This document shows, piece by piece, positions 20,565 through 54,184 of a stretch of DNA of 64,000 nucleotides. The position numbers and the translations under genes were made by a program. The notes under the pieces are model-generated. The model saw only the letters and a list, made by a program, of their open reading frames with translations. It had not been told where the DNA came from and made no database searches. The stretch's first letter is position 1. Every line of letters begins with the position of its first letter. The stretch spans positions 5,429 through 69,428 of the IMG/VR virus record IMGVR_UViG_2675903591_000001; one strand, written 5' to 3'. Origin of the DNA: a virus.

Positions 20565-20764
20565 GCAAAGGCTGCTTTGGTTCACTGATAGCAGCCTCTG
20601 AAACTAATCCCGTTTGCATGGCATGTTCCAGCAAGCGGGATTGCTTCGTTAAGGCACAAGAGACCGCTATCAAGATTTACGGGAAGTTCGCTGGCTTCCC
20701 AAACGACAAAATAAAAAAGACAAGTAAGGCAAAAGCACATGAAAGCATTAATGGTACGAACTGA
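20561..20764 (+). CDS. small Cys-containing protein (67 aa)
   Basis: ATGA-coupled; overlaps the dnaE N-fragment start by 26 nt. Confidence 0.35.
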   Translation: MSKGCFGSLIAASETNPVCMACSSKRDCFVKAQETAIKIYGKFAGFPNDKIKKTSKAKAHESINGTN

Positions 20765-23096
20765 CTTCTCCCTGGGTGAGTCGTCTTTGAAGGCAGAGCG
20801 CGCCGTAGAGAAAGCCCGCGAAATGGGTTACTCGTCGGTGATCTCCGCTGACAGCATGAATCTGGCATCCGTAATCCCCTTGCAGATGGCGGCTGGTGAC
20901 GATGTCGCGGTCATTTGTGGTGTAAAGCTGAACCTGGTTGACGATCCTACATACGAGCACCGCGCTCGACTCGCTAAGGAGTCTAAAGGATGTATGGAAT
21001 CATTAACGCGCGCGCGCAGCTACAGCTTCACGGCGCTCATTAAGAACGAGCAAGGTTATGTCGATCTCTGCGAACTGATGACGCTGGCAAACACACGCGA
21101 GCAGTTTTATCACGTTCCCCGTCTTGAGCTGGCGCAACTGCTGGCGACGTTCGCCAAAGGCAACATCATCCTGCTGACCTCGGACATGGGAAGCGTATTC
21201 CAGCGCCCGGACTTCGCGAAGATTATCGCCCAGCTGGTTCACGCTGGCGGCCGTGAGAACTTTTACTGCGCCGTTTATCCGATTGCTACCCCACTCTATG
21301 ACCAGCTGAATAGCAAAGCGCTCAAGGTGGCCAGTGCTCTTAAGATCGAGCCGGTGGCGTTCTACCCTGCTTACTACGAGGCTCCCACTGACGCTGACAT
21401 CAAAGACATCGCGCATATGGTGCTGAACAACATCAAAATCGACCAGCTGCACCGTATGCGAATCCCGTATCAACGTGACAATGGCGTTAATGATCGCCGC
21501 CACTTACTCCAGCTATTGAAGGAGTTTGCGGTGCGGATGGGTGTCAACGTCACGCCAGCAATGGTCTCAACAACTCAGGACGCGATCATTGATGCGTGTA
21601 CATGGCGCTGGCACCCGCTGGAACCCGCTTTACCAACCATGGCAGATGATGAGCCAGCCACATTGCGTAAACTCGCTGTAGAGGGGCTGAGGAAGCGTCT
21701 TAGCACCAAAGAGTTCGGCTATGCACCACCAGCCACAATGCACCGTGATTATGTTGAGCGCCTGAAGTACGAACTTGATGTTTTAACCCGCCTTGGCTTC
21801 TGCGGCTACTTCCTCATGGTTCACGACCTGATGAATTACGCTCGCGGCGCCGGGATTCCTGTTGGGCCTGGCCGTGGTTCATCCGCTGGCTCTCTTGTCG
21901 CCTGGTGCGTGGGGATTACAAACGTAGACCCTATTCGCCATGGATTGCTGTTCGAACGTTTCATTAACCCTGAACGTCTCGACTTGCCCGATGCTGATCT
22001 GGACTTTAGCCAGGCACGTCGTCACGAGGTCATTGAGTACCTGGGTGAGCGTTACGGGGAGGATTACGTCGCTGGCATTCCCAACTTCACATACCTCGGT
22101 GCAGCTTCAGCACTGCGCGACACCGCACGTATCTTTGGCGTGGATTCAGCGGATATGGCGGTATCGAAAGACCTGCGCTTTGTCGATGACGATTCACTGT
22201 CACTCGAAGAGATGCGCGAAGAGCTTTCCAGCCTGGACAAATACGCAGCCAAATACCCGGACGCATTTAACGCGGCCACCAAATTGCAAAGTCTCATGCG
22301 CGGATTCGGCCGCCACGCAGCTGGCATGATCGTAGCCGGTGTGAAACTGACAGAGCGCACACCGGTCGAGCGACGCGGGGATGCGCGTGTAATCGCTTTT
22401 GACAAGCGTTACTGCGAATCCATGGGATTGATTAAGTTGGACGTGCTAGGTCTCGCTACGCTCGATCTGCTGGCTTATGCGCAGCAATACGTGAAAGAAG
22501 CCACGGGAAGCGTGATTGATCTCGATGCAATTCCACTAACTGACAAAAAGGTTCTTGATGGCTTTGCCGGTGGCCACACCCAGGGCGTGTTCCAGCTTGA
22601 ATCAGGATCGATGCGTAAGCTGCTAAAGGATCTGGGCGGCGGCATTGATCCGATGAGCTTTGAAACAGTTGTCGCCACGACAGCATTATTCCGACCTGGC
22701 CCGATCGAATCTGGAATGTTGGACAGCTACGTTTCGGTGGCCAAAGGCTTCAAAGAGGCTGATTCCATCCACCAGGTACTCGATGAGCTTACCTCTGAGA
22801 CCAATGGGGTAATTCTCTTTCAGGAACAAACCATGAAGGCCACGCAGCTGCTGGCCGGCTTCACGCTCGCGGAAGCTGATGGCGTCCGAAAAGCGATCGG
22901 TAAAAAAGACATGGAGAAGATGAAGAAGGTCGGTAACCAGTTTATCGAGCAAGCCCAGGCCGGCTGGATAGAGGTGAAGCTGGAAGACGGAACCACTCGC
23001 CAGTTCCACCGCGCGGAGCACTTCAAATGTGCCGATGGCAAGCTGCGAACCATCGAAGAAGCAATGCACGATGGCGCCGACGTTCTGGGCATCTAA
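20739..23096 (+). CDS. dnaE: DNA polymerase III alpha subunit (DnaE), N-terminal fragment: PHP, palm, thumb and most of the fingers
   Basis: PHP motifs at the N-terminus; palm GRGSSAGSLVAWCVGIT ... DPI; DLPDADLDF catalytic aspartates; finger region ending RKAIGKK. Confidence 0.8.
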   Translation: MKALMVRTDFSLGESSLKAERAVEKAREMGYSSVISADSMNLASVIPLQMAAGDDVAVICGVKLNLVDDPTYEHRARLAKESKGCMESLTRARSYSFTALIKNEQGYVDLCELMTLANTREQFYHVPRLELAQLLATFAKGNIILLTSDMGSVFQRPDFAKIIAQLVHAGGRENFYCAVYPIATPLYDQLNSKALKVASALKIEPVAFYPAYYEAPTDADIKDIAHMVLNNIKIDQLHRMRIPYQRDNGVNDRRHLLQLLKEFAVRMGVNVTPAMVSTTQDAIIDACTWRWHPLEPALPTMADDEPATLRKLAVEGLRKRLSTKEFGYAPPATMHRDYVERLKYELDVLTRLGFCGYFLMVHDLMNYARGAGIPVGPGRGSSAGSLVAWCVGITNVDPIRHGLLFERFINPERLDLPDADLDFSQARRHEVIEYLGERYGEDYVAGIPNFTYLGAASALRDTARIFGVDSADMAVSKDLRFVDDDSLSLEEMREELSSLDKYAAKYPDAFNAATKLQSLMRGFGRHAAGMIVAGVKLTERTPVERRGDARVIAFDKRYCESMGLIKLDVLGLATLDLLAYAQQYVKEATGSVIDLDAIPLTDKKVLDGFAGGHTQGVFQLESGSMRKLLKDLGGGIDPMSFETVVATTALFRPGPIESGMLDSYVSVAKGFKEADSIHQVLDELTSETNGVILFQEQTMKATQLLAGFTLAEADGVRKAIGKKDMEKMKKVGNQFIEQAQAGWIEVKLEDGTTRQFHRAEHFKCADGKLRTIEEAMHDGADVLGI

Positions 23097-23168: not shown

Positions 23169-24338
23169 ATGAAAGTTTTAGAGACGATTTCCACGAAGCC
23201 CGGACTAAGCGACAGCAAAGCAAAAGAGATCTGGGAAGCGTTTGAGAAAAACGGGGCGTATCAGTTCAACAAATCTCACTCAGTGGCTTACTCGCTGATT
23301 AGCTATCAGTCGATGTTCATGAAGACGCACTACCCTGCCCAATTCTTCGCAGCAGCGCTGACTATTTTGGGTGATGACAAGCATCAGGGGCTGGTTAAAG
23401 ACGCTCTGAGCTTTGGCATTCGCATCTTGCCACCAGATGTAAATATCTCGACCAACCGCATTGAGATCCGCCAGATGGAAGACGGTACGCAAGTGCTGTA
23501 TGCGCCCTTCTCAGCTGTTAAAGGATGCTCAGAGAATGGATGCCAGGCGATCATGCGCGCCCGAGCGAAAGTGGGAGGCCATTTCACCGACATCATGCAG
23601 TTTGAAGAGGCGGTTGAGAAGCGCGCCTGCAACAGTCGTGTTCGTGATTCTCTCGATCGTGTCGGTGCATTTGCCAGCATCATCCCCGGCAGCTTACCCG
23701 CAACTTCCGAAGAGCGTCGCCGTGACCAGGCGGAGCTGATGGGTAATCTGGTGATCGATGCGGTAAAAGCGACACGCCGGTTTGAAATGAACCTGAAACG
23801 CCAGGCTGAAGTAAACGTGCTGATGACGAATATGGCCGCTGAAATGGGGCTGGGTGATGAGCTTATCCGTCCGAGCATCGGCATCAAACCACGCTTGATG
23901 ATCATCCTCGACAACGCCAACGGTAACGATGGAAAAACCGGCTACTTCATGGAGAACGGTTATGACGACTTCAAGGCGAAGTTGCTGGTTGCCGGTGATC
24001 TGAAGATGGGCGATTTGTACGTTACCGGCGTTTGCAAGAAGGTGAAGGACAAAGAAAAGGACTACACCAAAGACGAGTTAGGCCAGTTTAACGAGTTCAT
24101 CAAAGCAGAGGTGGCTTTGGTACGACCAACGTACATTCTTACGTGCGGCGCCAAGTCCACCAGCCTGTTTAACAACAAATCGAAGCCATCAGATCTTGTT
24201 GGCCGCAAAGAGTATCTGCCGGAGTTGGATGTCACGGTATTCTATGGCTTTAATCCCAACATTCTCCACTTCCGCCCAGAAGAAGGCGAAAAGCTGGAGT
24301 TGATCCTCGCTGACGTTGCCGAGGCAGTAAATTCGTGA
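23169..24338 (+). CDS. dnaE: DNA polymerase III alpha subunit, C-terminal fragment (end of fingers, HhH, divergent tail)
   Basis: YQFNKSHSVAYSLISYQSMFMKTHYPAQFFAAALT and ILPPDVNIS match the DnaE region after the fingers; has its own SD (AAGAGG) and ATG. Confidence 0.7.
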   Translation: MKVLETISTKPGLSDSKAKEIWEAFEKNGAYQFNKSHSVAYSLISYQSMFMKTHYPAQFFAAALTILGDDKHQGLVKDALSFGIRILPPDVNISTNRIEIRQMEDGTQVLYAPFSAVKGCSENGCQAIMRARAKVGGHFTDIMQFEEAVEKRACNSRVRDSLDRVGAFASIIPGSLPATSEERRRDQAELMGNLVIDAVKATRRFEMNLKRQAEVNVLMTNMAAEMGLGDELIRPSIGIKPRLMIILDNANGNDGKTGYFMENGYDDFKAKLLVAGDLKMGDLYVTGVCKKVKDKEKDYTKDELGQFNEFIKAEVALVRPTYILTCGAKSTSLFNNKSKPSDLVGRKEYLPELDVTVFYGFNPNILHFRPEEGEKLELILADVAEAVNS

Positions 24339-33457: not shown

Positions 33458-33806
33458 CATCGAAGGTATCAAATGGGTGGCTGATGGTGAGCCGAATTTC
33501 TACACGCTGCTTTCAGACAAGAACTGGTTCGGGAAACTCCAGCTGAACGGAGAGATGCACCCCGTCGCGCAGGAGAAGTTTTTAAATGCCCTGTTCCCAC
33601 ACTTGAAAGAAGAGGCGAGTAAGTCAGCAACGCCGCTCACACCGGTAAAAATCATCGAAATCATGATCGATTGGCTGGAGTGCAATGTGGATATGGGCAC
33701 ACCGATCATCTTTGACAATGATGATGACAACACTGATTCGGCAAAAGCCTTACCAGCTATGTACGAAGCGCTGCGCGTTCTTAGAGGTATAGGGGGGCAA
33801 TCTTGA
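33450..33806 (+). CDS. hypothetical protein (118 aa from MSNIEGIK)
   Basis: ATGA-coupled. Confidence 0.45.
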   Translation: MSNIEGIKWVADGEPNFYTLLSDKNWFGKLQLNGEMHPVAQEKFLNALFPHLKEEASKSATPLTPVKIIEIMIDWLECNVDMGTPIIFDNDDDNTDSAKALPAMYEALRVLRGIGGQS

Positions 33807-34146
33807 CTGTTGTATGCGAAAGCGTGTGGCCGGGTGTCGATTGGTTTACTCCGGGTAAGGAGTATAGCGGTGTGTCAGATTCTGATGGCCAGGCGCTGCA
33901 TACCACTGACGACTTTGGTGACGATGCCCTGATCTTCATTGACCACTCTCATCACGGCATCTTCAAAACCAAGAAGGATTAACTGATGGTAAGCCAGCAG
34001 AAAGATGAGAAGGCAGCTGAGCGCCAGAGATGGATTGCGGAAGGTGTAGAACTCGCCATAAGACACCTTGAAAGCTCTGACTTTGGTGAAGAAAACGACA
34101 TTCGCCTACTTCGCGAATTGTCTTTGCAACTCAAAAAGGAAATGCC

Positions 34147-34923: not shown

Positions 34924-35124
34924 CGCTTTCCTTACATTTCGAAAATAGGTTACTATCTACCTATCTTATGGAGTTCGCATGACAGTAGCTTTGCAATTAA
35001 CCTCTCTCCTTCTGGTAGTTTTATGCCGTCAGATGAAGAAAGCCTTCGAGCCAATGCCCGGGCGCGTTTATTACGCCTTCATGCTCAGCACCGCATTATT
35101 CATGTTCCTGTCGCCGGTGCTGAA

Positions 35125-35490
35125 ATGAAACGGATCTCGTTAATCGCATTATTGATGCTTCCCACTTTAGCCCAGGCTAATAGCCTGAAAACGTTGCAGT
35201 GTCACGCTGCCATCGTTCATTCAGCTGGAGAGCGAATCACTGGAGTTTCAGAGCGGATGACCGGTGCGCTGGTCGTTGACAGCGGTATGGAGTTTTACGC
35301 GCTGCTCGGCTCTACGATTTACAAGTCTCCCCCGCTGAAATCGCGGAAGAAGATGAAATTTGGTGTTGGCTCGGATGGCCAGACCTTTATTAAAAAGGAT
35401 GCCGTGTACAGCGTGTCTTCTCAGGACACCAGTATCATATTTGACGAGTGTTCCGAGGTTAGTAATGATTTACACCATGCAGAAAAGTGA
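35125..35490 (+). CDS. secreted small protein (signal peptide MKRISLIALLMLPTLAQA)
   Basis: classical Sec signal with AQA-N cleavage site. Confidence 0.45.
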   Translation: MKRISLIALLMLPTLAQANSLKTLQCHAAIVHSAGERITGVSERMTGALVVDSGMEFYALLGSTIYKSPPLKSRKKMKFGVGSDGQTFIKKDAVYSVSSQDTSIIFDECSEVSNDLHHAEK

Positions 35491-35721
35491 GATCCAAAAA
35501 GAGAGCGGTTACTGGCGCGCAAAGGGCTTTAAGCGTGAAGGGAACGAAGAGCTTCTGGATCGCTGGGACTGCACCATCACCTTCAAGCGCAAGCAGTGGC
35601 AGCACTTTGATAAGCTGAAAAACGAAATGACGATCACCGCACCAACACTCTTTGGGCTTCTTAAGAAAATCATCTAATTGGTTATCAAGAATTGACTGAG
35701 GTATGTGGCTTTTACATACCG

Positions 35722-35950
35722 CAGTCAATGGCGTTTGCCGAAGTACGCAACTCTACATACCGCAGTCAAGAAATCACATATTCTGGTTGGTTCAGGGTGG
35801 TTTTCATTGACTGCGGTATGCGTATTACGTATCGCAGTCAAGATGGGATGTGAGACGCATATCTCAGTGAAGATTGCATACCGCAGTCAATATTACATAC
35901 CGCAGCAAACAAACCGCATATCGCAGTCAATAAACTGCATACCTCAGTCA
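35722..35950. repeat. iteron array, 9 copies (consensus ACATACCGCAGTCAA, one inverted), downstream of repA; equivalent to the incA copy-number control locus
   Basis: copies near 35725, 35756, 35800 (inverted), 35827, 35861, 35879, 35896, 35914 and 35935. Confidence 0.75.
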
Positions 35951-36967
35951 ATTTTCGGGTTTGGATTTAGCGAGAGCTTCTGCCAGTTTGACGGGATCTA
36001 TACCTGCAGTTTTCAAAGCCTTAATGACTTCGTCGTAGTTCTCTTCTGACGGCGGCTGCTCTTCAACCTTTTGTTTAGGCAGCTTAGAAGTCTGGATCAG
36101 CTTCGGATTGCGGTAGTGAACGACGAAGAAGGTGGAGTTTCCGCGTTTAGTTTCAGTGTATTCGAGGTACCCGATTTCTTTCAGTTGCTCCATGGCCTTT
36201 CTAACAGTGTGATTTTGCGTGTAAACGCTTGAAGTCAGGTTAAGCCGGTCACGAAGGCGCTTCATCGAAATGGGAGCGTGGTTCTGGGGTAGACTTTCAA
36301 TGAAGGTGTATAGAGCCTGGGCTGATTCTTTACGTGGCAGTGCATCAATGGCTTTAAGTCGAAGCAGCACACGCCTGTCCATGTCATAGAGTTCGAAGAG
36401 TTTAGGCTCAGCTTCAATTTCAACAACGTTTTCAACGACATCGTATGAGGCTGATTTTACCAGGTGTGTCACCCACCCTTTCGTATCGTTCTGGAACTTA
36501 AGCGTTACGGATGCCAATTTAAACAGGGAGTTACTGATACGATCTCGCATCTTCTGGTTGGAGCGCCGGCTATCGAACCCACACATCTTAACGAACTCGA
36601 CAAACGTGAGCTTAAGCGCACTTCCCTGCACCCCATGCTCAGCCATTGAGCGAACGATCCCCAGCCATACCTTGAAATCAGTGTCCATATCCAAACGTGA
36701 CCCTGTAATTTTCACGTCGTTGTAGCCTTCGCTCTTGGCTATGGACAACTGGACAAGTTCTTCGGTCGCATCTGTGATATTTTTACGGTTAGTCTTGCTC
36801 TTACTCGTTGATTTCAGTGTAGGAACAAACAGGCCGAGACGCATGAGAGGAACCGGCTGAACAGTGCTGGAGCTGTTAATATCCAGTGAAACAATCTCAC
36901 CTGTCGATTTGTTTGTTTCTTCCAAATTCATCGGTAAGGTTTTGGATTTCTTGACCATTTCATGCAC
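35948..36967 (-). CDS. repA: iteron-binding replication initiator (RepA-like)
   Basis: 339-aa protein flanked on both sides by arrays of the same 15-19-bp repeat (5 upstream, 9 downstream), the P1 RepA/incC/incA architecture; call is by context. Confidence 0.65.
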   Translation of the reverse strand: MHEMVKKSKTLPMNLEETNKSTGEIVSLDINSSSTVQPVPLMRLGLFVPTLKSTSKSKTNRKNITDATEELVQLSIAKSEGYNDVKITGSRLDMDTDFKVWLGIVRSMAEHGVQGSALKLTFVEFVKMCGFDSRRSNQKMRDRISNSLFKLASVTLKFQNDTKGWVTHLVKSASYDVVENVVEIEAEPKLFELYDMDRRVLLRLKAIDALPRKESAQALYTFIESLPQNHAPISMKRLRDRLNLTSSVYTQNHTVRKAMEQLKEIGYLEYTETKRGNSTFFVVHYRNPKLIQTSKLPKQKVEEQPPSEENYDEVIKALKTAGIDPVKLAEALAKSKPEN

Positions 36968-36994
36968 CAGCAGTTGTTCACATGCCGTAAGTGT

Positions 36995-37105
36995 AACTGC
37001 ATATCTCAGTCAAGGTAAATACATACCGCAGTTAATGGATTTGCGTACCGCAGTTGGTAGGTTCACATGTCGCAGTCATGATTCTGCACACTACAGTCAA
37101 TATCG
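36995..37105. repeat. iteron array, 5 copies upstream of repA (origin core, incC-like)
   Basis: copies near 36998, 37020, 37043, 37063 and 37088, spaced about 21-23 bp apart. Confidence 0.75.
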
Positions 37106-37200
37106 ATCCTGTCTCAGCCCTGTGGTGGCGTGGGTTTGCGGCGATCGGGGATCTCTTTTGGATCTCCGTTGGGATCACTTTAGGATCAATTTATTGGATC
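37105..37200. promoter_or_regulatory. cluster of 8 GATC (Dam) sites in repeated GGATCNN heptamers next to the origin iterons; a weak DnaA-box-like TGTGGAAAT at 37207
   Basis: GATC at 37105, 37143, 37150, 37161, 37173, 37184, 37197 and others within about 95 bp; P1 oriR has a comparable GATC heptamer cluster. Confidence 0.6.
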
Positions 37201-37300
37201 GACACTGTGGAAATTGGGGATAAACAAAACAGGCAGTTACAGCCTAACGCCAAATTTATGCGCTACAGTCGCAAATATTTCCACCGGCAAGAGTAGACCA

Positions 37301-37945
37301 ATGGATCTGAAACGTACACGCTGGGTTCGCCGCCTCGAAGATGGCACCTATACCATTGAGCCAGATAGCAAACTTAACTCCCAGAAAGAACTATGCGACC
37401 TCTGTGGGATTGCGTCAAAATGCCCAATCAATGAGGCACGGCACAAGTTCAAGGCTACAGGGGCTGACTTCCACTTAAATTCTTGTCTGCGGTATGTGCC
37501 ACTTATCGCGTTTCGTAAACCGATCATCGGATTGAATGAGCCTTACTTCAACACGCTCCGCAGCGGAGTTACCTGGGTGAACCGTGTAGAGCCAGGCAAA
37601 ATCGTGTGTCTGGTAGACGCAGCGAACGGAGAGCGCATCAGGTTCGCAAAAGTGGATCGAGTCTGTTCGGGGCCATACGAAGAAATGCTTCGCAAACATA
37701 GCCGATTCAACCACCTTTGCATGGGTGGTGAAAGCGTGGAAAAGGTTTCTGAAGTGATCCGCAAGTCCTATGGGCATTTTCTGAAGCCTGATAGTCAGCT
37801 GACGGCCATTTATCTGCGGAGCATCAGCCGTGAACATGACGTTGAGTATCACACGGATCATGAGCTTGAATTAGAAGATCCTCGTGCGAAAGCACCAGTG
37901 ATAGATATGGCCTCGCTTCGCAGAAAGCACGAGAAGACGATTTAA
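37301..37945 (+). CDS. hypothetical protein (214 aa from MDLKRT)
   Basis: ORF downstream of the origin. Confidence 0.5.
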   Translation: MDLKRTRWVRRLEDGTYTIEPDSKLNSQKELCDLCGIASKCPINEARHKFKATGADFHLNSCLRYVPLIAFRKPIIGLNEPYFNTLRSGVTWVNRVEPGKIVCLVDAANGERIRFAKVDRVCSGPYEEMLRKHSRFNHLCMGGESVEKVSEVIRKSYGHFLKPDSQLTAIYLRSISREHDVEYHTDHELELEDPRAKAPVIDMASLRRKHEKTI

Positions 37946-38607: not shown

Positions 38608-39693
38608 ATGACTATACCGTATGGCGTGATCTCTGATCCCCACTACCACAACTGGAATACTTTCGCGGTTTCTGACGCCAACGGGCTTAATTCCCGCCTG
38701 GCCATTCTGCTTGAATCGACAAAGGAAGCTGCGATTGCCATCAAAGAGGCTGGCGCAAAGCATCTGCTTGTTGCAGGTGACACGTTCCATGTACGCGGCA
38801 CTATAACGCCATCTGTACTGCACTACGTGACGGAAACCTACAAGTGGATCATCAATGAGCTTGGCCTTGAAGTGGTCATGCTGGCCGGCAACCACGACCT
38901 CGAAACTAACGATTCTGTCTACAGCGCTAACGCAGCTGCCTCACTGCAGTCGATCGGGGTGCATATCGTTTGTGGGCAGCAGCCGTTCAGCATTGAAGTT
39001 GGTGATGTGAATGTTCATTTCATCAGCTGGCGTAACTCCCACGCCGAGCTTTTGAGTGATATGAAAGCGTTGCGAAATCGTCTTGAGGGCGACAACCACG
39101 ACATCATCATTCATACCTCAGTCAATAAAGCGATTCCGACCATGCCCGATGTGGGCATCGATGCGCAGGAGCTGAAGGACATTGGCTTCCGCCTGGTTTT
39201 GTCTGGTCATTACCATAACCACAAAGAAGTCCTGCCCGGAGTCGTCAGTGTAGGTGCGTTAACGCACCAGAATTGGGGCGATGTTGGAACTTTGGCCGGC
39301 TACATGATCGTACAGCCAGATGGCAGTTTTACCCAGCATGAAACCTCCGCTCCAAAGTTCGTCAACCTCGAAGAGGGCGTTGATGACAGCGAAGTACGCG
39401 GCAATTACGTTCGTTTCTACGCGACTATTGAAGCCGACGAAGAAGGCGTAAAGATAAAAAACACCCTCAACTCCATGGGCGCCAAAGGCGTCGTGTGCAA
39501 CTTCGTTCGTAAATCCTCAATGATGACCGGCTCCGCCAGCACTTCAGCTACGTCAAAGATAGATAGCCTTGGAGAGTCAGTAAGCGCTTACTGTCAGATT
39601 ATGCACGACACTGACGGCGGTTTTGATGTGAAGGCATTAGGCGCGCTTTGCAGCGACATCCTGCTTGAAGCGGAAACCGGAACTTCAGAATGA
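38608..39693 (+). CDS. sbcD: SbcD/Mre11-family nuclease
   Basis: calcineurin-like motifs GDTFHVRG, LAGNHD and GHYH. Confidence 0.8.
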   Translation: MTIPYGVISDPHYHNWNTFAVSDANGLNSRLAILLESTKEAAIAIKEAGAKHLLVAGDTFHVRGTITPSVLHYVTETYKWIINELGLEVVMLAGNHDLETNDSVYSANAAASLQSIGVHIVCGQQPFSIEVGDVNVHFISWRNSHAELLSDMKALRNRLEGDNHDIIIHTSVNKAIPTMPDVGIDAQELKDIGFRLVLSGHYHNHKEVLPGVVSVGALTHQNWGDVGTLAGYMIVQPDGSFTQHETSAPKFVNLEEGVDDSEVRGNYVRFYATIEADEEGVKIKNTLNSMGAKGVVCNFVRKSSMMTGSASTSATSKIDSLGESVSAYCQIMHDTDGGFDVKALGALCSDILLEAETGTSE

Positions 39694-39926
39694 TCACCGG
39701 CAAATACCAGTGGGCTGTAAATATCCTGAACAACGGAGGGACGGTCACACTCCATCGTTTTACATACCGCAGTGAACGAGTGCGCTACAAGCTCAACCGT
39801 CTTTATCGTGACGGAGTCTTAGATCGCGCTTTGTACAAAACTCACCTGGAGTTTCGTCTCAAGAAAGATCAGCCAAAGCTGACTAACCTGGCATCCAAAA
39901 TAAAACATACAGAGAAAAGCACATGA
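39690..39926 (+). CDS. small protein (78 aa) containing one isolated iteron copy
   Basis: ATGA-coupled between sbcD and sbcC. Confidence 0.4.
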   Translation: MITGKYQWAVNILNNGGTVTLHRFTYRSERVRYKLNRLYRDGVLDRALYKTHLEFRLKKDQPKLTNLASKIKHTEKST

Positions 39927-41839
39927 AATTTTTGTCAATGAAGGTTGAGAACTTCATGGCGCTGGCCGAAGCGGAAGTTGAACTCTCCGACCGCGGGCTG
40001 GTGCTGATCCAGGGTATCAACACTGACGACTCATCAGCTTCCAGCAATGGCGCTGGCAAGTCCACCCTCATGAACAGCTTAATGTGGTGCATCTATGGCG
40101 AAACTGCCCACGGTGTGAAGGGTGACGATGTTCTGTCAACGGGGAACGAGAAGAACTGTCGCGTTCAAGTGACCATAGAGGACGAAGGCAAAAAGTTCGC
40201 GATCATCCGTCACCGCAACCACAAAGAGTTTAAAAACCGTCTGATTGTTCGTGGTGAAGATGGCGACATGACTAAAGGCAAAGACACGCTTACGCAGGAG
40301 CTTGTCGAACGGCTGATTGGTGCATCGAAGGAAGTGTTCACCGCATCGATTTATGCAAGCCAAGAGGCTATGCCAGACCTGCCGGGCATGACTGACAAGA
40401 ACCTTAAAGCGATAGTGGAAGAAGCTGCTGGCGTTGACCGTTTGACCCGGGCGTATTCAATTGCTCGCGAACGAGCAAATGCAGCTGCCGCGCGGGTAGA
40501 TAACGTTAAGACCAAGATGGAAGGCACTCTGTCGCTGGTGGACTCAGCTGAAACAGAGCTGAAGTCTGCAAAGGCATCCTCAGAAGAGTGGGAAAAGAGC
40601 CGCAGCCAGCGTTTGGAAAAGTCCCGCGAAGATCTGACCGGCGCTGAAGTTGAGCTGGCAGAGGCGGAGCTGGAGCTGCGAACCATTCCAGAACAGATCC
40701 GCGATAAGCAGAACGCCATTACCGCAGAGCGTGAAAAACTGGCAACTAAAGATGAACACGACAAAAAGCTGGTTCGTGTCCGGGCTGTTATTTCCGAAGC
40801 GGAAGGCAACATCCGTTCCGCAGAGACGTTAAAAGCGTCAGCGGTTAAACGTGCCCACAATAACAAAGCGCAGGCTGATGCCATTGATTCCAAGGTTGGC
40901 ACTCCGTGCCCAACATGCGGAAAGGCTTATTGCAGCGAAGATTTATCAACCGTTAAGGAGAACTATATTGGCCAGGCACGCAGTGAAATTGCAGAAGCGC
41001 AGGCATCAGCAGCGACAGTGGCTGAACAGCAAGGCCGTCTTGATAAAGCGCGCGGCATCGAGCGAGCACTTATCGACGCAACACCAGACGTCTCAGCCAT
41101 CGTTGCCCGAATCCAGCAGCTGAATGGTGAGCTAAGCACCTTAAACAAGCGCTCCGGTGAGCTGGGTTTGCTTGAGACCACCTTCCGCCGCGCTAAGGCT
41201 GAAGTGGATCGTGTCATGGCAGAAGTGAATCCGTTTCTGGCGAGCATTACGCGCCATGAAGAGAGCCTGCGCGCCAATAAATCTAAATACGCAGAACTTA
41301 AAACAGAACTTAAAAACCATCAGGATCAGGCTCAGCTGCTTGAGAAAGCGCGACAGGTATATTCCCCAGCCGGTGTCCGTTCGCACATTCTCAGCTCAGT
41401 GACGCCGTTCCTGAACATGCGTACCGCCGAATATCTCAACACTCTGTCTGACGGCAATATCGTTGCTGAATGGTCAACTATGGAGACCACTAAGAAAGGT
41501 GAGATCCGCGACAAATTCAACATCAATGTGTCGAAAGCAGGTTCCAGCAAATCATTCATGGGTTTATCCGGTGGTGAGAAACGAAAGGTGCGAATTTCTT
41601 GCTCACTGGCATTGCAGGATCTGGTGGCCAGCCGCGCCAGCAAAAACATCCAGCTGTTTATCGGTGATGAAATTGACGATGCGCTGGACTCAGCAGGGCT
41701 TGAGCGCTTGATGGGCATCCTTGAAACCAAGGCGCGCGAGCGTGGCACCGTGATGATCATCAGTCACAAAGAAATGAAATCATGGTTCCGCGAAACTATC
41801 ACCGTTGAAGTGAAGGATGGCCGCAGTTATGTCAGTTAA
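39923..41839 (+). CDS. sbcC: SbcC/Rad50-family ATPase
   Basis: Walker A NGAGKSTL; long coiled coils; zinc-hook CPTCGKAYC; ABC signature LSGGEKRKV; Walker B FIGDEIDDALD. Confidence 0.8.
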   Translation: MKFLSMKVENFMALAEAEVELSDRGLVLIQGINTDDSSASSNGAGKSTLMNSLMWCIYGETAHGVKGDDVLSTGNEKNCRVQVTIEDEGKKFAIIRHRNHKEFKNRLIVRGEDGDMTKGKDTLTQELVERLIGASKEVFTASIYASQEAMPDLPGMTDKNLKAIVEEAAGVDRLTRAYSIARERANAAAARVDNVKTKMEGTLSLVDSAETELKSAKASSEEWEKSRSQRLEKSREDLTGAEVELAEAELELRTIPEQIRDKQNAITAEREKLATKDEHDKKLVRVRAVISEAEGNIRSAETLKASAVKRAHNNKAQADAIDSKVGTPCPTCGKAYCSEDLSTVKENYIGQARSEIAEAQASAATVAEQQGRLDKARGIERALIDATPDVSAIVARIQQLNGELSTLNKRSGELGLLETTFRRAKAEVDRVMAEVNPFLASITRHEESLRANKSKYAELKTELKNHQDQAQLLEKARQVYSPAGVRSHILSSVTPFLNMRTAEYLNTLSDGNIVAEWSTMETTKKGEIRDKFNINVSKAGSSKSFMGLSGGEKRKVRISCSLALQDLVASRASKNIQLFIGDEIDDALDSAGLERLMGILETKARERGTVMIISHKEMKSWFRETITVEVKDGRSYVS

Positions 41840-43201: not shown

Positions 43202-45526
43202 ATGATTAACATCCAGAAACGTGACGGGCGATCGGAGCCACTGAGCGAAGAAAAGTACAACCGCGTGGTAATGTGGGCGGTCGAAGGCGTTGAAAACGTC
43301 AGTGCATCAGCCATTGCCCTCGGTGCTTCTGCCAGCATTTTTGACGGCATGACCACCAGCCAGTTGCATGAGGCGCTGGTGAAAGCCGCAGCTGACTTGA
43401 TCAGCCCGGAAACTCCGAACTACTCCCAGGTTGCAGCCCGTCTTAATCTGTTCAAAATGCGCAAAGATGCGTTTGGTCAGTACGAATACCCCGACCTGTA
43501 CATGCACATCGTGAACCTCGTTAATCGTGGCATTTACGATGAAGATCTGTTGAAACGCTATCATCCAAACGAAATTAACGAGCTGGGCAAATATCTCGAT
43601 ACCGCTCGCGATGATCTGTTTGGCTACGCGGCCACCGTGCAGCTGCAGGGCAAATATCTTGTCCAGAACCGCGTCACTGGAAAAATTCACGAAGCACCGC
43701 AACACATTTATATGCTGGTGGGTATGTGTCTGTTCCAGGATTGGCAGGACGGCACCAGTGGTAAAACTCGTCTGGAAATGGTCAAAGGCTTCTATGATGT
43801 CACCAGTACATTCAAGCTCTCATTGCCAACCCCAATCATGGCAGGCGTTCGCACACCGACGCGCCAGTTCTCAAGCTGCGTACTGATTGAATCTGGCGAC
43901 AGTCTGAAAGCCATTAATGGTACAGCTGCCGCGATCGTCGATTACGTTTCTCAACGTGCCGGCATCGGCATTAGCTTTGGCCGCATCCGTGCGCTGGGAA
44001 GCGAAATCCGTGGTGGCGAAGCGACCCACACTGGCGTTATCCCCTTCCTGAAGCATTTCCAGACAGCCGTTAAATCCTGTTCGCAGGGCGGTGTCCGTGG
44101 CGGCGCAGCTACTGCGTATTATCCGTTCTGGCATCTGGAAACTGAAAGCCTGCTGGTGCTGAAAAACAACCGCGGTGTGGATGAGAACCGTGTACGTCAT
44201 CTTGACTACGGTGTGTTGCTGAACCGTCTGATGTACCGCCGTCTTATTCGTGAAGAGAACATCACTCTGTTTAGCCCGAATGATGTGCCTGGTCTGTATG
44301 ACGCTTATTTCGAAGATCAGGATCTGTTCGAAGAGCTTTACCTGAAATACGAAGCTGACCCGGCTATTCGCAAGAAGAGTGTTTCCGCCGTTGAGCTGTT
44401 CTCTTCCATGATGCAGGAGCGCGCCTCTACCGGTCGTATTTATATCGGCAACGCTGACCACATGAATGAGCATAGCTCCTTCATCCAGAGCATTGCGCCA
44501 GTGCGTATGTCAAACCTGTGTGCTGAGATTACGCTGCCAACCAAACCGCTGGTGAAAACAGACGATCCCAACGGCGAGATCGCTCTTTGCACACTGTCAG
44601 CGTTTAACCTCGGCGCCATCGATTCTCTGGGTGACCTGCAGGAAGTCGCATTCTTTGCAGTCGCGGCACTCGACTCACTGCTTGATTACCAAAACTACCC
44701 AATGGAAGCCGCAGAGCGTGGAGCAAAAGCGCGCCGCAGCTTGGGTATTGGTGTAACCAACTTTGCGTATTACCTGGCGAAGAATGGCTTTAAATACTCC
44801 GATCTTGAAGGCAACAAGCTGGTTCACGAAACGTTTGAAGCGATTCAGTATTACCTTCTGGACGCCAGCTGCAAATTAGCTGAAGCGAAAGGCGCGTGTG
44901 AGTGGTTCGACGAAACCAAATACTCTCTCGGCCAGCTGCCAATTGACCACTATCGCAAGTCCCTGGATGGTCAGGAGATCAATGCGAAGCATCCGCTGCT
45001 ACTCCCATGGGAACAGCTGCGCCACCGCATCAAAGTGCATGGTCTGCGTAACTCTACGCTGACAGCTCAGATGCCGTGCGAAACGTCGAGCCAGATCACC
45101 AACTCAACGAACGGCATCGAGCCGCCGCGCGGGGCTGTGTCCATCAAATCCTCCAAAGAAGGCGCCATCAAAATGGTTGTGCCTGATTTTGAGAACCTGA
45201 AAGGGCAATACGAATACCTGTGGGATATGCCGAGTAACTACGGCTATCTGACCAAAGTGGCGATCATTCAGAAGTTCTTCGACCAGTCTATTTCGACCAA
45301 CACGAACTATGATCCTGAGCGCTTCCCTAATGGCAAAGTCCCAATGGAAACGCTGCTTGATGATCTGCTCACCGCCTACCAGCTGGGCATCAAAACTCTC
45401 TATTACCACAACACGCGCGACGGTGCCGGCCAAACGGAAGACACCAGCGATGTGAGCAGCGCGCCCCAGGCTATTCAAGAGCCAATTCTTGACGACGAGC
45501 CTGATTGCGACACCTGCACCATCTAA
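43202..45526 (+). CDS. nrdA: class I ribonucleotide reductase large subunit
   Basis: N-terminal ATP-cone (QKRDGRSEPL...); RNR catalytic core; C-terminal Cys pair CDTC; start at the GGAAAACACATG context. Confidence 0.9.
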   Translation: MINIQKRDGRSEPLSEEKYNRVVMWAVEGVENVSASAIALGASASIFDGMTTSQLHEALVKAAADLISPETPNYSQVAARLNLFKMRKDAFGQYEYPDLYMHIVNLVNRGIYDEDLLKRYHPNEINELGKYLDTARDDLFGYAATVQLQGKYLVQNRVTGKIHEAPQHIYMLVGMCLFQDWQDGTSGKTRLEMVKGFYDVTSTFKLSLPTPIMAGVRTPTRQFSSCVLIESGDSLKAINGTAAAIVDYVSQRAGIGISFGRIRALGSEIRGGEATHTGVIPFLKHFQTAVKSCSQGGVRGGAATAYYPFWHLETESLLVLKNNRGVDENRVRHLDYGVLLNRLMYRRLIREENITLFSPNDVPGLYDAYFEDQDLFEELYLKYEADPAIRKKSVSAVELFSSMMQERASTGRIYIGNADHMNEHSSFIQSIAPVRMSNLCAEITLPTKPLVKTDDPNGEIALCTLSAFNLGAIDSLGDLQEVAFFAVAALDSLLDYQNYPMEAAERGAKARRSLGIGVTNFAYYLAKNGFKYSDLEGNKLVHETFEAIQYYLLDASCKLAEAKGACEWFDETKYSLGQLPIDHYRKSLDGQEINAKHPLLLPWEQLRHRIKVHGLRNSTLTAQMPCETSSQITNSTNGIEPPRGAVSIKSSKEGAIKMVVPDFENLKGQYEYLWDMPSNYGYLTKVAIIQKFFDQSISTNTNYDPERFPNGKVPMETLLDDLLTAYQLGIKTLYYHNTRDGAGQTEDTSDVSSAPQAIQEPILDDEPDCDTCTI

Positions 45527-53569: not shown

Positions 53570-54184
53570 ATGATTGCCGCAGAGAAGATTAAAAAGCGCG
53601 AGCGTGACAAAGAGCTGCGCGACCTGTGGCGCACTCCGCGGTGGCTATTTGAGGCCATTCAGAAATACCTGGGCATACAGTTTAACGTTGACGTGGCTTG
53701 TGATGCCGGCAACGCGTTGCTGCCTGACTTTATAGGCAAGGAAAGAGACGCGCTTGTTTGTGAATGGGGCGAGCCAGGCACCAATGCTTTTCTCAATCCG
53801 CCGTATTCCAAGATTAGACCCTGGATAGAGGCAGCTAGGCGTGAGCAGCGTCGCGGCGTATCGACAGTAATGCTGATCCCCCAATCACTTGATACCGCCT
53901 GGTATGAGTTCGCCACTGAATCAGCTAATGAGACGGTGGTGCTGACCGGTGGGCGTGTAGCCTTTCTTGAACCAGACGTGGAGCTGGGGCTGGTAGAAGT
54001 ACGTGAAAACCCTGGTGGGAGTATGCTGGTGGTCTTCCGCGGCCACTGCCACCAAGCTGGGCACATTCTTCGCAAGGTTTCACTGCCAGTAATGAAAGAG
54101 CTGGGTGGTTATGATCCTTCAAAAGCAATCAGAAAGAAGCGCCCCTCCAAGAAGAAACAACCCACGTTGGAGCTGGCAGCTTAG
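53570..54184 (+). CDS. phage-type DNA N6-adenine methyltransferase (Dam-like)
   Basis: NPPYS catalytic motif; small size; layout of the phage_N6A_met family. Confidence 0.8.
   Translation: MIAAEKIKKRERDKELRDLWRTPRWLFEAIQKYLGIQFNVDVACDAGNALLPDFIGKERDALVCEWGEPGTNAFLNPPYSKIRPWIEAARREQRRGVSTVMLIPQSLDTAWYEFATESANETVVLTGGRVAFLEPDVELGLVEVRENPGGSMLVVFRGHCHQAGHILRKVSLPVMKELGGYDPSKAIRKKRPSKKKQPTLELAA

What the first reader, a model, noticed from the sequence alone, without database searches (positions are those of the whole stretch)
35722..37215. P1-type plasmid replicon: repA bracketed by 5 and 9 iterons, with an 8-site GATC heptamer cluster
The 15-19-bp repeat ACATACCGCAGTCAA occurs 5 times upstream of the 339-aa - strand gene (36995-37105) and 9 times downstream (35722-35950, one inverted). 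This is the P1 oriR/repA/incA organisation, with 5 origin iterons and 9 copy-control iterons. Adjacent to the 5-iteron block, 8 GATC sites lie within about 95 bp in repeated GGATCNN heptamers, as in P1 oriR, where Dam methylation is required. The element encodes its own Dam-like MTase at 53570. A weak DnaA-box-like TGTGGAAAT follows. Together with parA and the recombinase, this shows that the element is maintained as a low-copy plasmid, that is, a phage-plasmid.
Basis: partly seen in the sequence, partly recalled or inferred. Interest (0 to 1): 0.5.

Follow-up and report, generated by a model that had tools for sequence, protein, structure and literature searches.

The report
P1/RepFIB-type plasmid replicon in phage-plasmid
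This is an ordinary but complete plasmid replication module of the well-studied P1/RepFIB family: an initiator gene between two arrays of its own binding sites, next to a methylation-site-rich origin. It sits on an SSU5-like phage that lives as a plasmid, and its closest relatives are the IncFIB(K) replicons of Klebsiella/Enterobacter plasmids rather than P1 itself.

Summary
A minus-strand repA (35948-36958, 336 aa from the likely ATG; the 339-aa ORF starts at GTG 36967) has 5 direct iterons upstream (36997-37104). Downstream there are 10, not 9, and two are inverted (35689-35954). Next to the origin iterons lie 7, not 8, GATC sites in 96 bp (P about 5e-7), six of them in about 11-bp heptamer repeats. 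A GC-rich spacer and a tandem DnaA-box-like pair (37206-37223) complete the origin.

RepA passes both Pfam Rep_3 domain cut-offs. It is 51% identical to P1 RepA (E 7e-95), 57% to SSU5 RepA and 79-80% to IncFIB(K) RepA. The block of DnaA boxes, heptamers and spacer aligns at 62-70% DNA identity with P1 oriR, SSU5 and IncFIB(K). The iteron sequence matches only IncFIB(K).

Gene order matches phage SSU5. Two 93.8%-identical circular plasmids (pCP102, Cronobacter JZ38) carry a full siphovirus module. The Dam-family methyltransferase, ParA-like ATPase and tyrosine recombinase are confirmed.

I class it as a new member of a known kind, of low interest. Function, Dam dependence and incompatibility are inferred, not tested.

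The parts
37206..37223 (-). Tandem DnaA-box-like pair. In repA-sense it reads TTATCCCCA + ATTTCCACA. It lies at the outer edge of the origin, in the position of P1's two tandem DnaA boxes.
   Evidence: Only tandem pair in the 64-kb window with at most 1 mismatch per box to TTWTNCACA; 0.06 expected in shuffles. 17 of its 18 bases are invariant in the three sister plasmids; JZ38 changes the first base of the outer box. P1's DnaA site is annotated in the same relative position.
37143..37200 (-). Array of six GATC-containing heptamers (repA-sense GATCCNN, about 11-bp period). The heptamer array plus the adjacent DnaA boxes (37143-37232) is 42% GC. This is the presumed unwinding and SeqA/Dam-sensing region.
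   Evidence: GATC starts at 37143, 37150, 37161, 37173, 37184 and 37197. All are invariant in pCP102 and JZ38. The array aligns with the P1 oriR Dam sites 1-5 and with the IncFIB(K) and SSU5 origins.
37109..37142 (-). GC-rich spacer between the heptamers and the iterons.
   Evidence: 37106-37142 (this spacer plus the tail of the adjacent GATC) is 65% GC, against 49% for the whole window. A homologous GC-rich block (…CGCCGCAAACCC…) is present in SSU5, IncFIB(K) and P1.
37105..37108 (.). Seventh GATC, abutting origin iteron 1.
   Evidence: The same GATC-next-to-first-iteron arrangement occurs in IncFIB(K) and SSU5.
36997..37104 (-). Five direct origin iterons, the equivalent of P1 incC. Cores at 37087-37100, 37066-37079, 37044-37057, 37022-37035 and 37000-37013, with 21-22 bp spacing.
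   Evidence: PWM 17.6-25.7 bits. P1 has five iterons at about 21-bp spacing in the same place.
36990..37019 (-). Weak candidate repA promoter, TTTACC-18-TACACT, overlapping the last origin iteron. This would allow autorepression by RepA. Inferred only.
   Evidence: 8 of 12 consensus matches. The stricter scan found no promoter here. P1's PrepA is annotated inside its last iterons.
35948..36958 (-). repA, the Rep_3-family (WH1+WH2) iteron-binding initiator. It is 336 aa from ATG 36958; the ORF can be read from GTG 36967 as 339 aa.
   Evidence: Pfam Rep3_N 41.8 bits (cut-off 22.4) and Rep3_C 24.6 bits (cut-off 21.1). PHROG 775, 2.2e-127. 51% identity to P1 RepA, E 7e-95. 79-80% to IncFIB(K) RepA and 57.5% to SSU5 RepA. 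62 synonymous versus 6 nonsynonymous codon differences against pCP102.
35689..35954 (-). Ten copy-control iterons, the equivalent of P1 incA and of FIB repeats E-K. Cores at 35938, 35917, 35896, 35877, 35858, 35828, 35807 (inverted), 35756, 35715 and 35692 (inverted). The first overlaps the repA stop codon.
   Evidence: PWM 20-29.8 bits. JZ38 lacks exactly one 19-bp unit. P1 has nine iterons in the same place, starting at the repA stop.
37483..37496 (+). Outlying inverted iteron 380 bp beyond the origin iterons, inside the phrog_2105 gene. It corresponds to the small third iteron cluster of the IncFIB(K) and SSU5 origins.
   Evidence: 18.6 bits. Identical in both sister plasmids. Third clusters at L004 1059-1137 and L008 20938-21024.
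35276..35289 (+). Outlying iteron-like site 0.4 kb beyond the control array.
   Evidence: 16.2 bits. Identical in both sisters.
33803..33816 (+). Outlying iteron-like site 1.9 kb beyond the control array.
   Evidence: 20.4 bits. Retained, at 25.2 bits, in pCP102 within a stretch that is only 84% identical.
39112..39125 (+). Outlying iteron-like site inside the metallophosphoesterase (SbcD-like) gene.
   Evidence: 22.8 bits. Identical in both sisters.
39763..39776 (+). Outlying iteron-like site in the small ORF 39690-39926.
   Evidence: 22.2 bits. Conserved in both sisters, with 0-1 change.
53570..54184 (+). Dam-family N6-adenine DNA methyltransferase. It could methylate the origin GATCs in trans; its sequence specificity was not established.
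   Evidence: PF05869, 119.8 bits against a cut-off of 28.1. PHROG 111, 1.7e-58.
175..840 (+). ParA/MipZ-type partition ATPase. It belongs to the plasmid-maintenance equipment but is not adjacent to the replicon.
   Evidence: PF09140 MipZ 53 bits and AAA_31. PHROG 164 'ParA-like partition protein', 2.2e-43.

Best explanation
This is the plasmid-prophage maintenance replicon of an SSU5-like phage-plasmid. It is an iteron-controlled theta replicon of the P1/RepFIB family, with IncFIB(K)-type iteron specificity.

The proposed mechanism is inferred by homology to P1 and FIB.
1. RepA monomers bind the five direct 21-22-bp-spaced iterons at 36997-37104.
2. Host DnaA binds the tandem boxes at 37206-37223.
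3. Together they open the intervening region of GATC heptamers (42% GC with the adjacent DnaA boxes), where the host helicase is loaded.
4. Full methylation of the six or seven GATCs by host Dam, or possibly by the element's own Dam-family enzyme, permits initiation.
5. Hemimethylated GATCs after passage of the fork would be sequestered by SeqA, which limits re-initiation.
6. RepA bound to the last origin iteron represses its own weak promoter.
7. The ten downstream iterons, and probably the few outlying ones, titrate RepA and pair with the origin iterons ('handcuffing') in cis and in trans. This holds copy number low and causes incompatibility.
8. Stable inheritance then depends on the ParA-like partition ATPase and the tyrosine recombinase encoded elsewhere on the element.

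Shown here: the anatomy, its statistical significance, its conservation, and its homology to characterised replicons. Inferred: every biochemical step above.
For: Anatomy. The order DnaA boxes, GATC heptamers, GC spacer, 5 iterons, repA, iteron array matches the annotated P1 record feature by feature.

Statistics. Seven GATC in 96 bp gives P=5e-7, with a shuffle maximum of 5. The tandem DnaA-like pair is unique in the window, against 0.06 expected. The 15 clustered iterons score 17.6-29.8 bits, while the best hit outside 33.8-44.2 kb scores 10.3.

Initiator. Both Rep_3 domains are above the Pfam cut-offs. RepA is 51% identical to P1 RepA, E 7e-95, and 79-80% to IncFIB(K) RepA.

Origin core. 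It is 62-70% identical pairwise among the window, IncFIB(K), SSU5 and P1.

Specificity. The window's iteron PWM detects all 16 IncFIB(K) iterons and none in SSU5 or P1.

Selection. repA shows 62 synonymous versus 6 nonsynonymous codon changes against pCP102. All GATCs are invariant, and the DnaA boxes nearly so, in three plasmids that are about 94% identical. JZ38 shows a unit-length (19-bp) iteron deletion.

Plasmid state. pCP102 and the JZ38 plasmid are complete circular 109-110 kb records.

Phage nature. There is synteny with SSU5, and pCP102 has a structural module.

Literature. FIB replicons have upstream origin iterons and downstream control iterons that act by handcuffing, and the downstream block alone displaces a FIB plasmid (PMC11983097). 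In P1, DnaA opens the origin and RepA facilitates this (PMC5043065). P1 has an array of DnaA boxes upstream of the DUE (PMC4980987). Most typed phage-plasmids are IncFIB and belong mainly to the SSU5 supercommunity (PMC7969092).
Against: There are no functional data for this sequence.

The repA promoter is weak and ill-defined: 8 of 12 consensus matches, and no hit in the stricter scan. The Shine-Dalgarno sequence is poor. The F-plasmid FIB replicon is known to be crippled by exactly such an expression defect (PMC11983097).

Both DnaA boxes deviate from the consensus. P1's second DnaA-box array, between the iterons and repA, has no clear counterpart here.

SSU5 has lost half of the heptamer GATCs, so Dam dependence is not guaranteed in this clade.

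The target sequence of the Dam-family MTase is unknown.

I did not check the part of the element outside the window, or the rest of the window, for a second replicon.
Confidence: 0.88

Rival explanations
1. It is a genuine P1/IncY replicon. P1 would be the closest relative, with the same specificity and the P1-style rep-par maintenance block.
For: It has the same part list and order as P1 oriR-repA-incA. RepA is 51% identical to P1 RepA.
Against: RepA is far closer to IncFIB(K) (79-80%) and somewhat closer to SSU5 (57.5%) than to P1. The iteron sequence TTGACTGCGGTATG is unrelated to the P1 iteron GATGTGTGCTGGAGGGAAA, and the window's PWM finds no P1 iteron. No parAB operon follows the control iterons, whereas P1 parA starts 270 bp after incA. 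The orientation pattern of the control iterons differs: 8 direct + 2 inverted here, 3 direct + 6 inverted in P1. The backbone is SSU5-like, not P1-like.
Confidence: 0.03
2. It is a decayed or silent replicon, like the FIB replicon of F. In that case the element would be maintained from another origin, and the iteron arrays would serve only as incompatibility or titration determinants.
For: The promoter and ribosome-binding site look weak. F's FIB replicon is nearly inactive because of a weak rep RBS, yet it keeps its iterons (PMC11983097). The element encodes its own DnaB-like helicase, Pol III alpha subunit and ligase, so other replication modes exist.
Against: repA is intact and under strong purifying selection, with 62 synonymous against 6 nonsynonymous codon changes. 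All origin motifs are conserved in three plasmids. Weak, autorepressed expression is normal for this family. It is the only gene annotated as a plasmid replication initiator in the complete 110-kb sister plasmid. Functional SSU5-type phage-plasmids are typed by this same locus (PMC7969092).
Confidence: 0.06
3. The locus is the phage's lytic (vegetative) origin rather than the plasmid-maintenance origin.
For: It is embedded in a block of phage DNA-metabolism genes, including RecA-like, SbcCD-like, Pol III alpha and helicase genes.
Against: Every characterised homologue (P1 oriR, RepFIB, IncFIB(K)) is a low-copy plasmid-maintenance replicon with negative control by extra iterons. That control is the opposite of what a lytic origin needs. 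More than 3000 non-phage plasmids use the about 80%-identical RepA.
Confidence: 0.03

Closest known systems
IncFIB(K) replicon of Klebsiella/Enterobacter F-type plasmids (e.g. pF93-1_1, NZ_CP026161; RepA WP_064081476)
   Same: RepA is 79-80% identical over its full length, including the about 40-aa C-terminal tail that P1 lacks. The iteron sequence is the same: the window's PWM scores all 16 IncFIB(K) iterons at 12-29 bits. The layout of the six-heptamer GATC array, the GC spacer and the GATC abutting iteron 1 is the same. Outlying iterons are present in both.
   Different: Nucleotide identity of repA is only 72.7%. That is well below the usual replicon-typing thresholds (general knowledge), and PLSDB gives no replicon type for the two sister plasmids. 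IncFIB(K) has a perfect DnaA box (TGTGGATAA) between the iterons and repA and lacks the outer tandem pair; here it is the reverse. IncFIB(K) has 7-8 control iterons against 10 here. The carrier is mostly a conjugative F-type plasmid, against a non-mobilizable SSU5-like phage-plasmid here.
Bacteriophage P1 plasmid replicon (oriR / incC - repA - incA; IncY)
   Same: The order of parts is identical: tandem DnaA boxes, GATC heptamers (including the shared motif AGATCCC[C/T]GATCG), a GC-rich spacer, five iterons at about 21 bp, repA, then an iteron array that starts at the repA stop codon. The origin core is 68% identical in DNA. RepA is 51% identical, E 7e-95. Both elements are phage-plasmids that encode a Dam-type MTase.
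   Different: The iteron sequences are unrelated. P1 has 5 GATCs against 6+1 here. P1 has 9 control iterons (3 direct + 6 inverted, 30-41 bp apart), against 10 here (8 direct + 2 inverted, mostly 19-21 bp apart). P1 has a second DnaA-box array next to repA, and parAB-parS immediately downstream; neither is present here. P1 RepA is 286 aa and lacks the C-terminal tail.
Salmonella phage-plasmid SSU5 replicon (and IncFIB(pHCM2)-type relatives)
   Same: The genomic position is the same, between the phrog_804 (SSU5_068) and phrog_2105 (SSU5_070) genes, in a syntenic backbone. The flanking proteins are 72-76% identical. The heptamer/spacer block is homologous at 67%. The orientation of repA, against the flanking genes, is the same.
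   Different: RepA is only 57.5% identical. SSU5's iterons are CCACTGTAGAGAG, unrelated to those here. SSU5 has about 15 control iterons and a third cluster upstream. Only three of its six heptamers retain GATC. The intergenic origin region is 745 bp in SSU5 against 343 bp here.
Classical RepFIB of F / P307 / pO157 (IncFIB)
   Same: rep is flanked by the upstream origin iterons BCDD'D'' and the downstream control iterons E-K. There is a DnaA site, weak autoregulated Rep expression and handcuffing control (PMC11983097). RepA is about 56% identical.
   Different: Sequence identity is lower. The experimentally proven CTG start codon of F/P307 Rep (PMC11983097) has no demonstrated equivalent here. 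In-frame CTG codons do exist at 36970 and 36973, but PGAP and the homology with IncFIB(K) favour ATG 36958.

Membership tests
P1/RepFIB family of iteron-controlled theta replicons | Initiator homologous to P1 RepA / RepFIB RepA (Rep_3 fold, WH1 + WH2). | tested here: met
   Pfam Rep3_N 41.8 bits (cut-off 22.4) and Rep3_C 24.6 bits (cut-off 21.1). BLASTP to P1 RepA gives 51% identity over 274 aa, E 7e-95. PHROG 775, 2.2e-127.
P1/RepFIB family of iteron-controlled theta replicons | Array of about five direct iterons at about two-helical-turn spacing immediately upstream of rep (origin / incC). | tested here: met
   Five copies at 37000-37100, with spacing 22, 22, 22 and 21 bp, all in one orientation.
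P1/RepFIB family of iteron-controlled theta replicons | Second array of the same iterons downstream of rep (incA / repeats E-K) for negative copy control. | tested here: met
   Ten copies at 35689-35954, starting at the repA stop codon. The copy-control role itself is inferred from PMC11983097 and from the P1 annotation.
P1/RepFIB family of iteron-controlled theta replicons | Origin core with repeated GATC-containing heptamers and a GC-rich spacer next to the origin iterons. | tested here: met
   Six heptamer GATCs plus one at the iteron edge, P=5e-7. The spacer is 65% GC. The core aligns with P1, IncFIB(K) and SSU5 at 62-70% identity.
P1/RepFIB family of iteron-controlled theta replicons | DnaA box(es) flanking the origin. 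| tested here: met
   Tandem pair at 37206-37223, with one mismatch each to TTWTNCACA. It is unique in the window against 0.06 expected, and it occupies the position of P1's annotated DnaA site. DnaA binding itself was not tested.
P1/RepFIB family of iteron-controlled theta replicons | Autonomous, RepA- and DnaA-dependent replication at low copy number; Dam-methylation dependence. | not testable with these tools
   This needs cloning of 35.6-37.3 kb into a conditional vector, and dam, seqA and dnaA host tests.
IncFIB(K) incompatibility type | Same iteron specificity as reference IncFIB(K) replicons. | tested here: met
   The window-derived PWM scores all 16 iterons of pF93-1_1 at 12-29 bits and none in SSU5 or P1. 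The RepA WH2 region is nearly identical.
IncFIB(K) incompatibility type | High nucleotide identity of repA to the typing reference, as used operationally by replicon-typing schemes. | tested here: not met
   72.7% nucleotide identity to the pF93-1_1 repA. PLSDB/MOB-suite assigns no replicon type to pCP102 or to the JZ38 plasmid. It should therefore be described as IncFIB(K)-like, not filed as IncFIB(K).
IncFIB(K) incompatibility type | Experimental incompatibility with an IncFIB(K) plasmid. | not testable with these tools
   This needs co-residence or displacement assays.
P1 (IncY) plasmid maintenance region | P1-type iteron sequence and an adjacent parA-parB-parS operon. | tested here: not met
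   No P1 iteron is recognised by the window's PWM, and the sequences are unrelated. The genes beyond the control iterons are small + strand phage ORFs. The ParA-like gene is at 175-840.
SSU5-supercommunity phage-plasmids | Syntenic SSU5-like backbone, a phage structural module, and a plasmid replicon and partition genes. | tested here: met
   The window is syntenic with SSU5 40-80 kb. The flanking proteins are 72-76% identical. The structural module was seen only in the sister plasmid pCP102, not within the window itself.

The most novel reading that the evidence does not exclude
Because its iterons are IncFIB(K)-type, this phage-plasmid could act as a natural, phage-delivered incompatibility agent. 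It carries ten control iterons plus five conserved outlying iterons spread over about 6 kb of flanking phage genes. On lysogenisation these would titrate or handcuff the RepA of resident IncFIB(K) resistance and virulence plasmids of Klebsiella/Enterobacter and displace them, or the phage-plasmid would itself be excluded by them. The outlying iterons inside phage genes might also couple RepA occupancy to expression of those genes.
Probability: 0.2. Interest if true: 0.5.

Novelty: new member of a known kind. Interest (0 to 1): 0.2.

Why it matters
The result identifies how this element is maintained as a plasmid, and it gives exact coordinates for every origin component. None of these components is annotated in the near-identical public records, where only 'RepB family plasmid replication initiator protein' is marked.

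It also shows that an SSU5-type backbone can carry a replicon whose iteron specificity is that of the clinically dominant IncFIB(K) plasmids rather than that of SSU5. This fits the known pattern of conserved phage genes with variable plasmid genes (PMC7969092). It yields a testable prediction of cross-incompatibility with IncFIB(K) plasmids.

It does not reveal a new mechanism.

Tried and rejected
(1) Mosaic origin. In alignment A3 the heptamer/spacer block looked SSU5-like while the iterons and RepA looked IncFIB(K)-like. Pairwise identities of the core are all 62-70%, so there is no evidence of a recombination junction inside the origin.

(2) Covariation test for the outlying iterons. I scanned 40 kb of SSU5 with SSU5's own iteron. 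It has a third small cluster near the origin but no dispersed sites in the homologous flanking genes. The distal orphans are therefore not a conserved SSU5-backbone feature. IncFIB(K) does have outlying sites.

(3) Conservation of the orphans against their flanks in the sister plasmids gave 6/220 versus 45/832 mismatches. This is suggestive but not significant, and it is confounded by coding constraint.

(4) Antisense-RNA control. The Rfam scan of 35-38 kb found only sub-threshold miRNA-model hits caused by the inverted iterons.

(5) Solved structures. phmmer of RepA against PDB sequences found nothing meaningful. I did not pursue structure prediction because the sequence homology to P1 RepA is already decisive.

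(6) Strict sigma-70 scan. It found no promoter upstream of repA. Only a weak candidate (8 of 12 matches) appeared with relaxed rules.

(7) Nucleotide search against the phage collection found no match. The primary P1 origin papers (PMC208038, PMC553761, PMC523184) are not held, so statements about Dam dependence of P1 rest on the P1 GenBank annotation, on titles in reference lists and on general knowledge.
Full report
OBSERVATION

The repeats are real. A repeat search and a mismatch scan find the core CATACCGCAGTCAA (repA-sense TTGACTGCGGTATG) five times in one orientation. The copies start at 37000, 37022, 37044, 37066 and 37087, spaced 22, 22, 22 and 21 bp apart, just upstream of a minus-strand ORF.

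Downstream of that ORF there are ten copies, at 35938, 35917, 35896, 35877, 35858, 35828, 35807 (inverted), 35756, 35715 and 35692 (inverted).

A position weight matrix built from the 15 copies scores them at 17.6-29.8 bits. The best score anywhere outside 33.8-44.2 kb is 10.3 bits.

The GATC cluster has seven sites, not eight, within 37105-37200. The eighth GATC, at 37304, is 104 bp away. The Poisson probability is 5e-7. The next densest 100 bp in the window holds 4 sites, and 200 shuffles never exceeded 5. Six sites sit in about 11-bp-spaced heptamers (repA-sense GATCCNN). The seventh abuts the first origin iteron.

The 'weak DnaA box' is one half of a tandem pair at 37206-37223 (repA-sense TTATCCCCA-ATTTCCACA). 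It is the only such pair in the 64 kb, against 0.06 expected.

The ORF is 339 aa from GTG 36967. The two sister genes are annotated from the ATG equivalent to 36958, giving 336 aa. In-frame CTG codons lie just upstream. This matters because the proven start of F/P307 FIB Rep is a CTG that is commonly misannotated (PMC11983097). The true start here is unresolved.

WHAT IT IS

RepA passes the Pfam cut-offs for both Rep_3 domains: WH1 at 41.8 bits and WH2 at 24.6 bits. It matches PHROG 775 at 2e-127.

By BLASTP it is 51% identical to P1 RepA over 274 residues, which is nearly the whole P1 protein (E 7e-95). Translated searches give the following identities:
- 57.5% to SSU5 RepA
- about 56% to classical RepFIB
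- 79-80% to the RepA of more than 3000 IncFIB(K)-type plasmids of Klebsiella and Enterobacter
- 98% to two plasmids only: pCP102 of Enterobacter sp. CP102 (109,870 bp) and an unnamed plasmid of Cronobacter sp. JZ38 (109,007 bp)

At the DNA level the replicon is 93.8% identical to those two plasmids. It has no nucleotide match in the phage collection.

COMPARISON WITH THE ANNOTATED P1 REPLICON

The P1 RefSeq record annotates the following, in repA-sense order: a DnaA site of two tandem boxes; five Dam sites; a spacer; five incC iterons at about 21-bp spacing that contain PrepA; repA; nine incA iterons beginning at the repA stop codon; and parA.

The window read in the same orientation shows the same order: tandem DnaA-like boxes, six heptamer GATCs, a 65%-GC spacer, a GATC, five iterons, repA, and ten iterons beginning at the stop codon. 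The heptamer blocks are homologous in sequence. P1 reads AGATCCCTGATCG where the window reads AGATCCCCGATCG.

A four-way alignment of the origin cores, together with pairwise identities, puts the window, IncFIB(K), SSU5 and P1 at 62-70% to one another. This block is a family-wide conserved module. I found no sign of a recombination junction inside it.

The iterons, by contrast, are lineage-specific. The window's matrix recognises all 16 iterons of an IncFIB(K) reference at 12-29 bits, but none in SSU5 (CCACTGTAGAGAG) or in P1 (GATGTGTGCTGGAGGGAAA). The RepA WH2 region is almost identical between the window and IncFIB(K).

The replicon is therefore P1-type in architecture and ancestry, and IncFIB(K)-like in specificity. 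It should not be filed as IncFIB(K) by the operational criterion. The repA nucleotide identity is 72.7%, and PLSDB gives the sister plasmids no replicon type.

EVIDENCE OF SELECTION AND FUNCTION

Against pCP102, repA has 62 synonymous and 6 nonsynonymous codon differences. Against JZ38 the figures are 50 and 5. All seven GATCs and the iteron cores are conserved in the three plasmids, and the DnaA boxes nearly so (JZ38 changes one base of the outer box). JZ38 lacks exactly one 19-bp iteron unit, which is the expected behaviour of a tandem binding-site array.

A weak promoter candidate, TTTACC-18-TACACT, overlaps the last origin iteron. This is the P1 arrangement for autorepression. It is only 8 of 12 matches, however, and the stricter scan found nothing. 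Rfam gives no sign of an antisense-RNA control system.

THE ELEMENT

Gene order around the replicon matches phage SSU5. The order runs CobT-like, Pol III alpha, RecA-like, SPFH, small ORFs, repA on the opposite strand, phrog_2105, SbcD/SbcC-like, nrdAB, thyA, DHFR and an N6-adenine MTase. The flanking proteins are 72-76% identical to those of SSU5.

The window itself holds no virion genes. The sister plasmid pCP102 carries terminase, portal, major capsid, tape-measure and tail genes.

The side claims hold. There is a Dam-family MTase at 53570-54184 (PF05869, 119.8 bits), a ParA/MipZ ATPase at 175-840 and a tyrosine recombinase at 14875-16005. Unlike P1, the partition gene is 35 kb from the replicon.

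Pfeifer et al. report that most typed phage-plasmids are IncFIB and belong mainly to the SSU5 supercommunity (PMC7969092). An FIB-family replicon on such a backbone is therefore the expected situation.

MECHANISM (inferred by homology)

- RepA binds the five origin iterons.
- DnaA bound at the outer boxes, helped by RepA, opens the heptamer region. [quoted passage not shown] P1 has a DnaA-box array upstream of the DUE (PMC4980987).
- Dam methylation of the heptamer GATCs is required in P1. This rests on the P1 record's Dam-site annotation and on Abeles & Austin 1987, which is cited in PMC2865523.
- The role of SeqA is general knowledge and was not tested here.
- The downstream iterons control copy number by handcuffing. 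In FIB replicons the downstream block alone suffices to displace a resident plasmid (PMC11983097).

One caveat applies. SSU5 keeps the heptamer periodicity but has lost three of the six GATCs. Dam dependence may therefore vary within the clade. The link to the element's own methylase is speculation.

NOTICED IN PASSING

Six iteron-like sites of at least 16 bits lie outside the two arrays, against 0.14 expected in 200 dinucleotide shuffles. Three reach at least 20 bits, against 0.01 expected. The sites are at 33803, 35276, 37483, 39112, 39763 and 44202.

In the complete 110-kb pCP102, the only such sites are the first five of these, all within about 2.7 kb of the replicon. They are almost unchanged in both sisters. 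Because they lie mostly in coding sequence, the excess conservation is not significant.

IncFIB(K) also has outlying iterons. SSU5 has a third small cluster but no dispersed sites. The outlying sites probably add to RepA titration or handcuffing.

VERDICT

This is a correctly recognised, complete P1/RepFIB-family iteron replicon. It is a new sequence variant of a well-known kind, closest to IncFIB(K), on an SSU5-like phage-plasmid. It is useful for annotation and for an incompatibility prediction. It is not mechanistically surprising.

Noticed in passing
window 33803-33816 (-), 35276-35289 (-), 37483-37496 (-), 39112-39125 (+), 39763-39776 (+), 44202-44215 (-): Single iteron-like sites lie outside the two arrays, mostly inside flanking phage genes. 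Six reach at least 16 bits against 0.14 expected, and three reach at least 20 bits against 0.01 expected. In the whole 110-kb sister plasmid pCP102, the only such sites are the first five, all within about 2.7 kb of the replicon. IncFIB(K) has similar outliers; SSU5 does not. They may be extra RepA titration or handcuffing sites, or roadblocks to transcription entering the replicon.
   Followed up: partly
L007 (Cronobacter sp. JZ38 plasmid), aligned to window 35893-35911: JZ38 lacks exactly one 19-bp control-iteron unit relative to the window and pCP102. It has 9 downstream iterons instead of 10. Iteron number therefore varies by unit-length deletion between near-identical plasmids.
   Followed up: yes
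window 35948-36075 (RepA residues about 296-336): RepA carries a C-terminal tail of about 40 aa (…EENYDEVIKALKTAGIDPVKLAEALAKSKPEN). It is shared with IncFIB(K) RepA, replaced by a different, longer tail in SSU5 RepA, and absent from P1 RepA. Its function is unknown.
   Followed up: no
window 35023-35677 and 37301-37945: repA is the only minus-strand gene in a long run of plus-strand phage genes. Transcription from both neighbours therefore converges on or runs through the iteron arrays. The neighbours are conserved proteins of unknown function: phrog_804, the homologue of SSU5_068, which the SSU5 record annotates as 'putative Cre-associated protein'; and phrog_2105, the homologue of SSU5_070.
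   Followed up: partly
window 2951-4291, 7362-8684, 20739-23096, 38608-41839: The element encodes its own DnaB-like helicase, DNA ligase, Pol III alpha-like polymerase (PHP + NTPase + finger domains) and an SbcCD-like nuclease pair. This is presumably the lytic replication machinery, separate from the RepA plasmid replicon. In the window the Pol III alpha ORF is 785 aa, whereas the SSU5 gene (3519 nt) encodes about 1170 aa, and a separate 389-aa ORF follows (23169-24338). The gene may be split or interrupted here.
   Followed up: no
L003/L008 (SSU5 origin, L003 1232-1300): The SSU5 origin keeps the heptamer periodicity, but three of its six heptamers read GAACC or GACCC instead of GATCC. The heptamer itself, and not only the Dam site, seems to be the conserved unit in this origin family.
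   Followed up: partly
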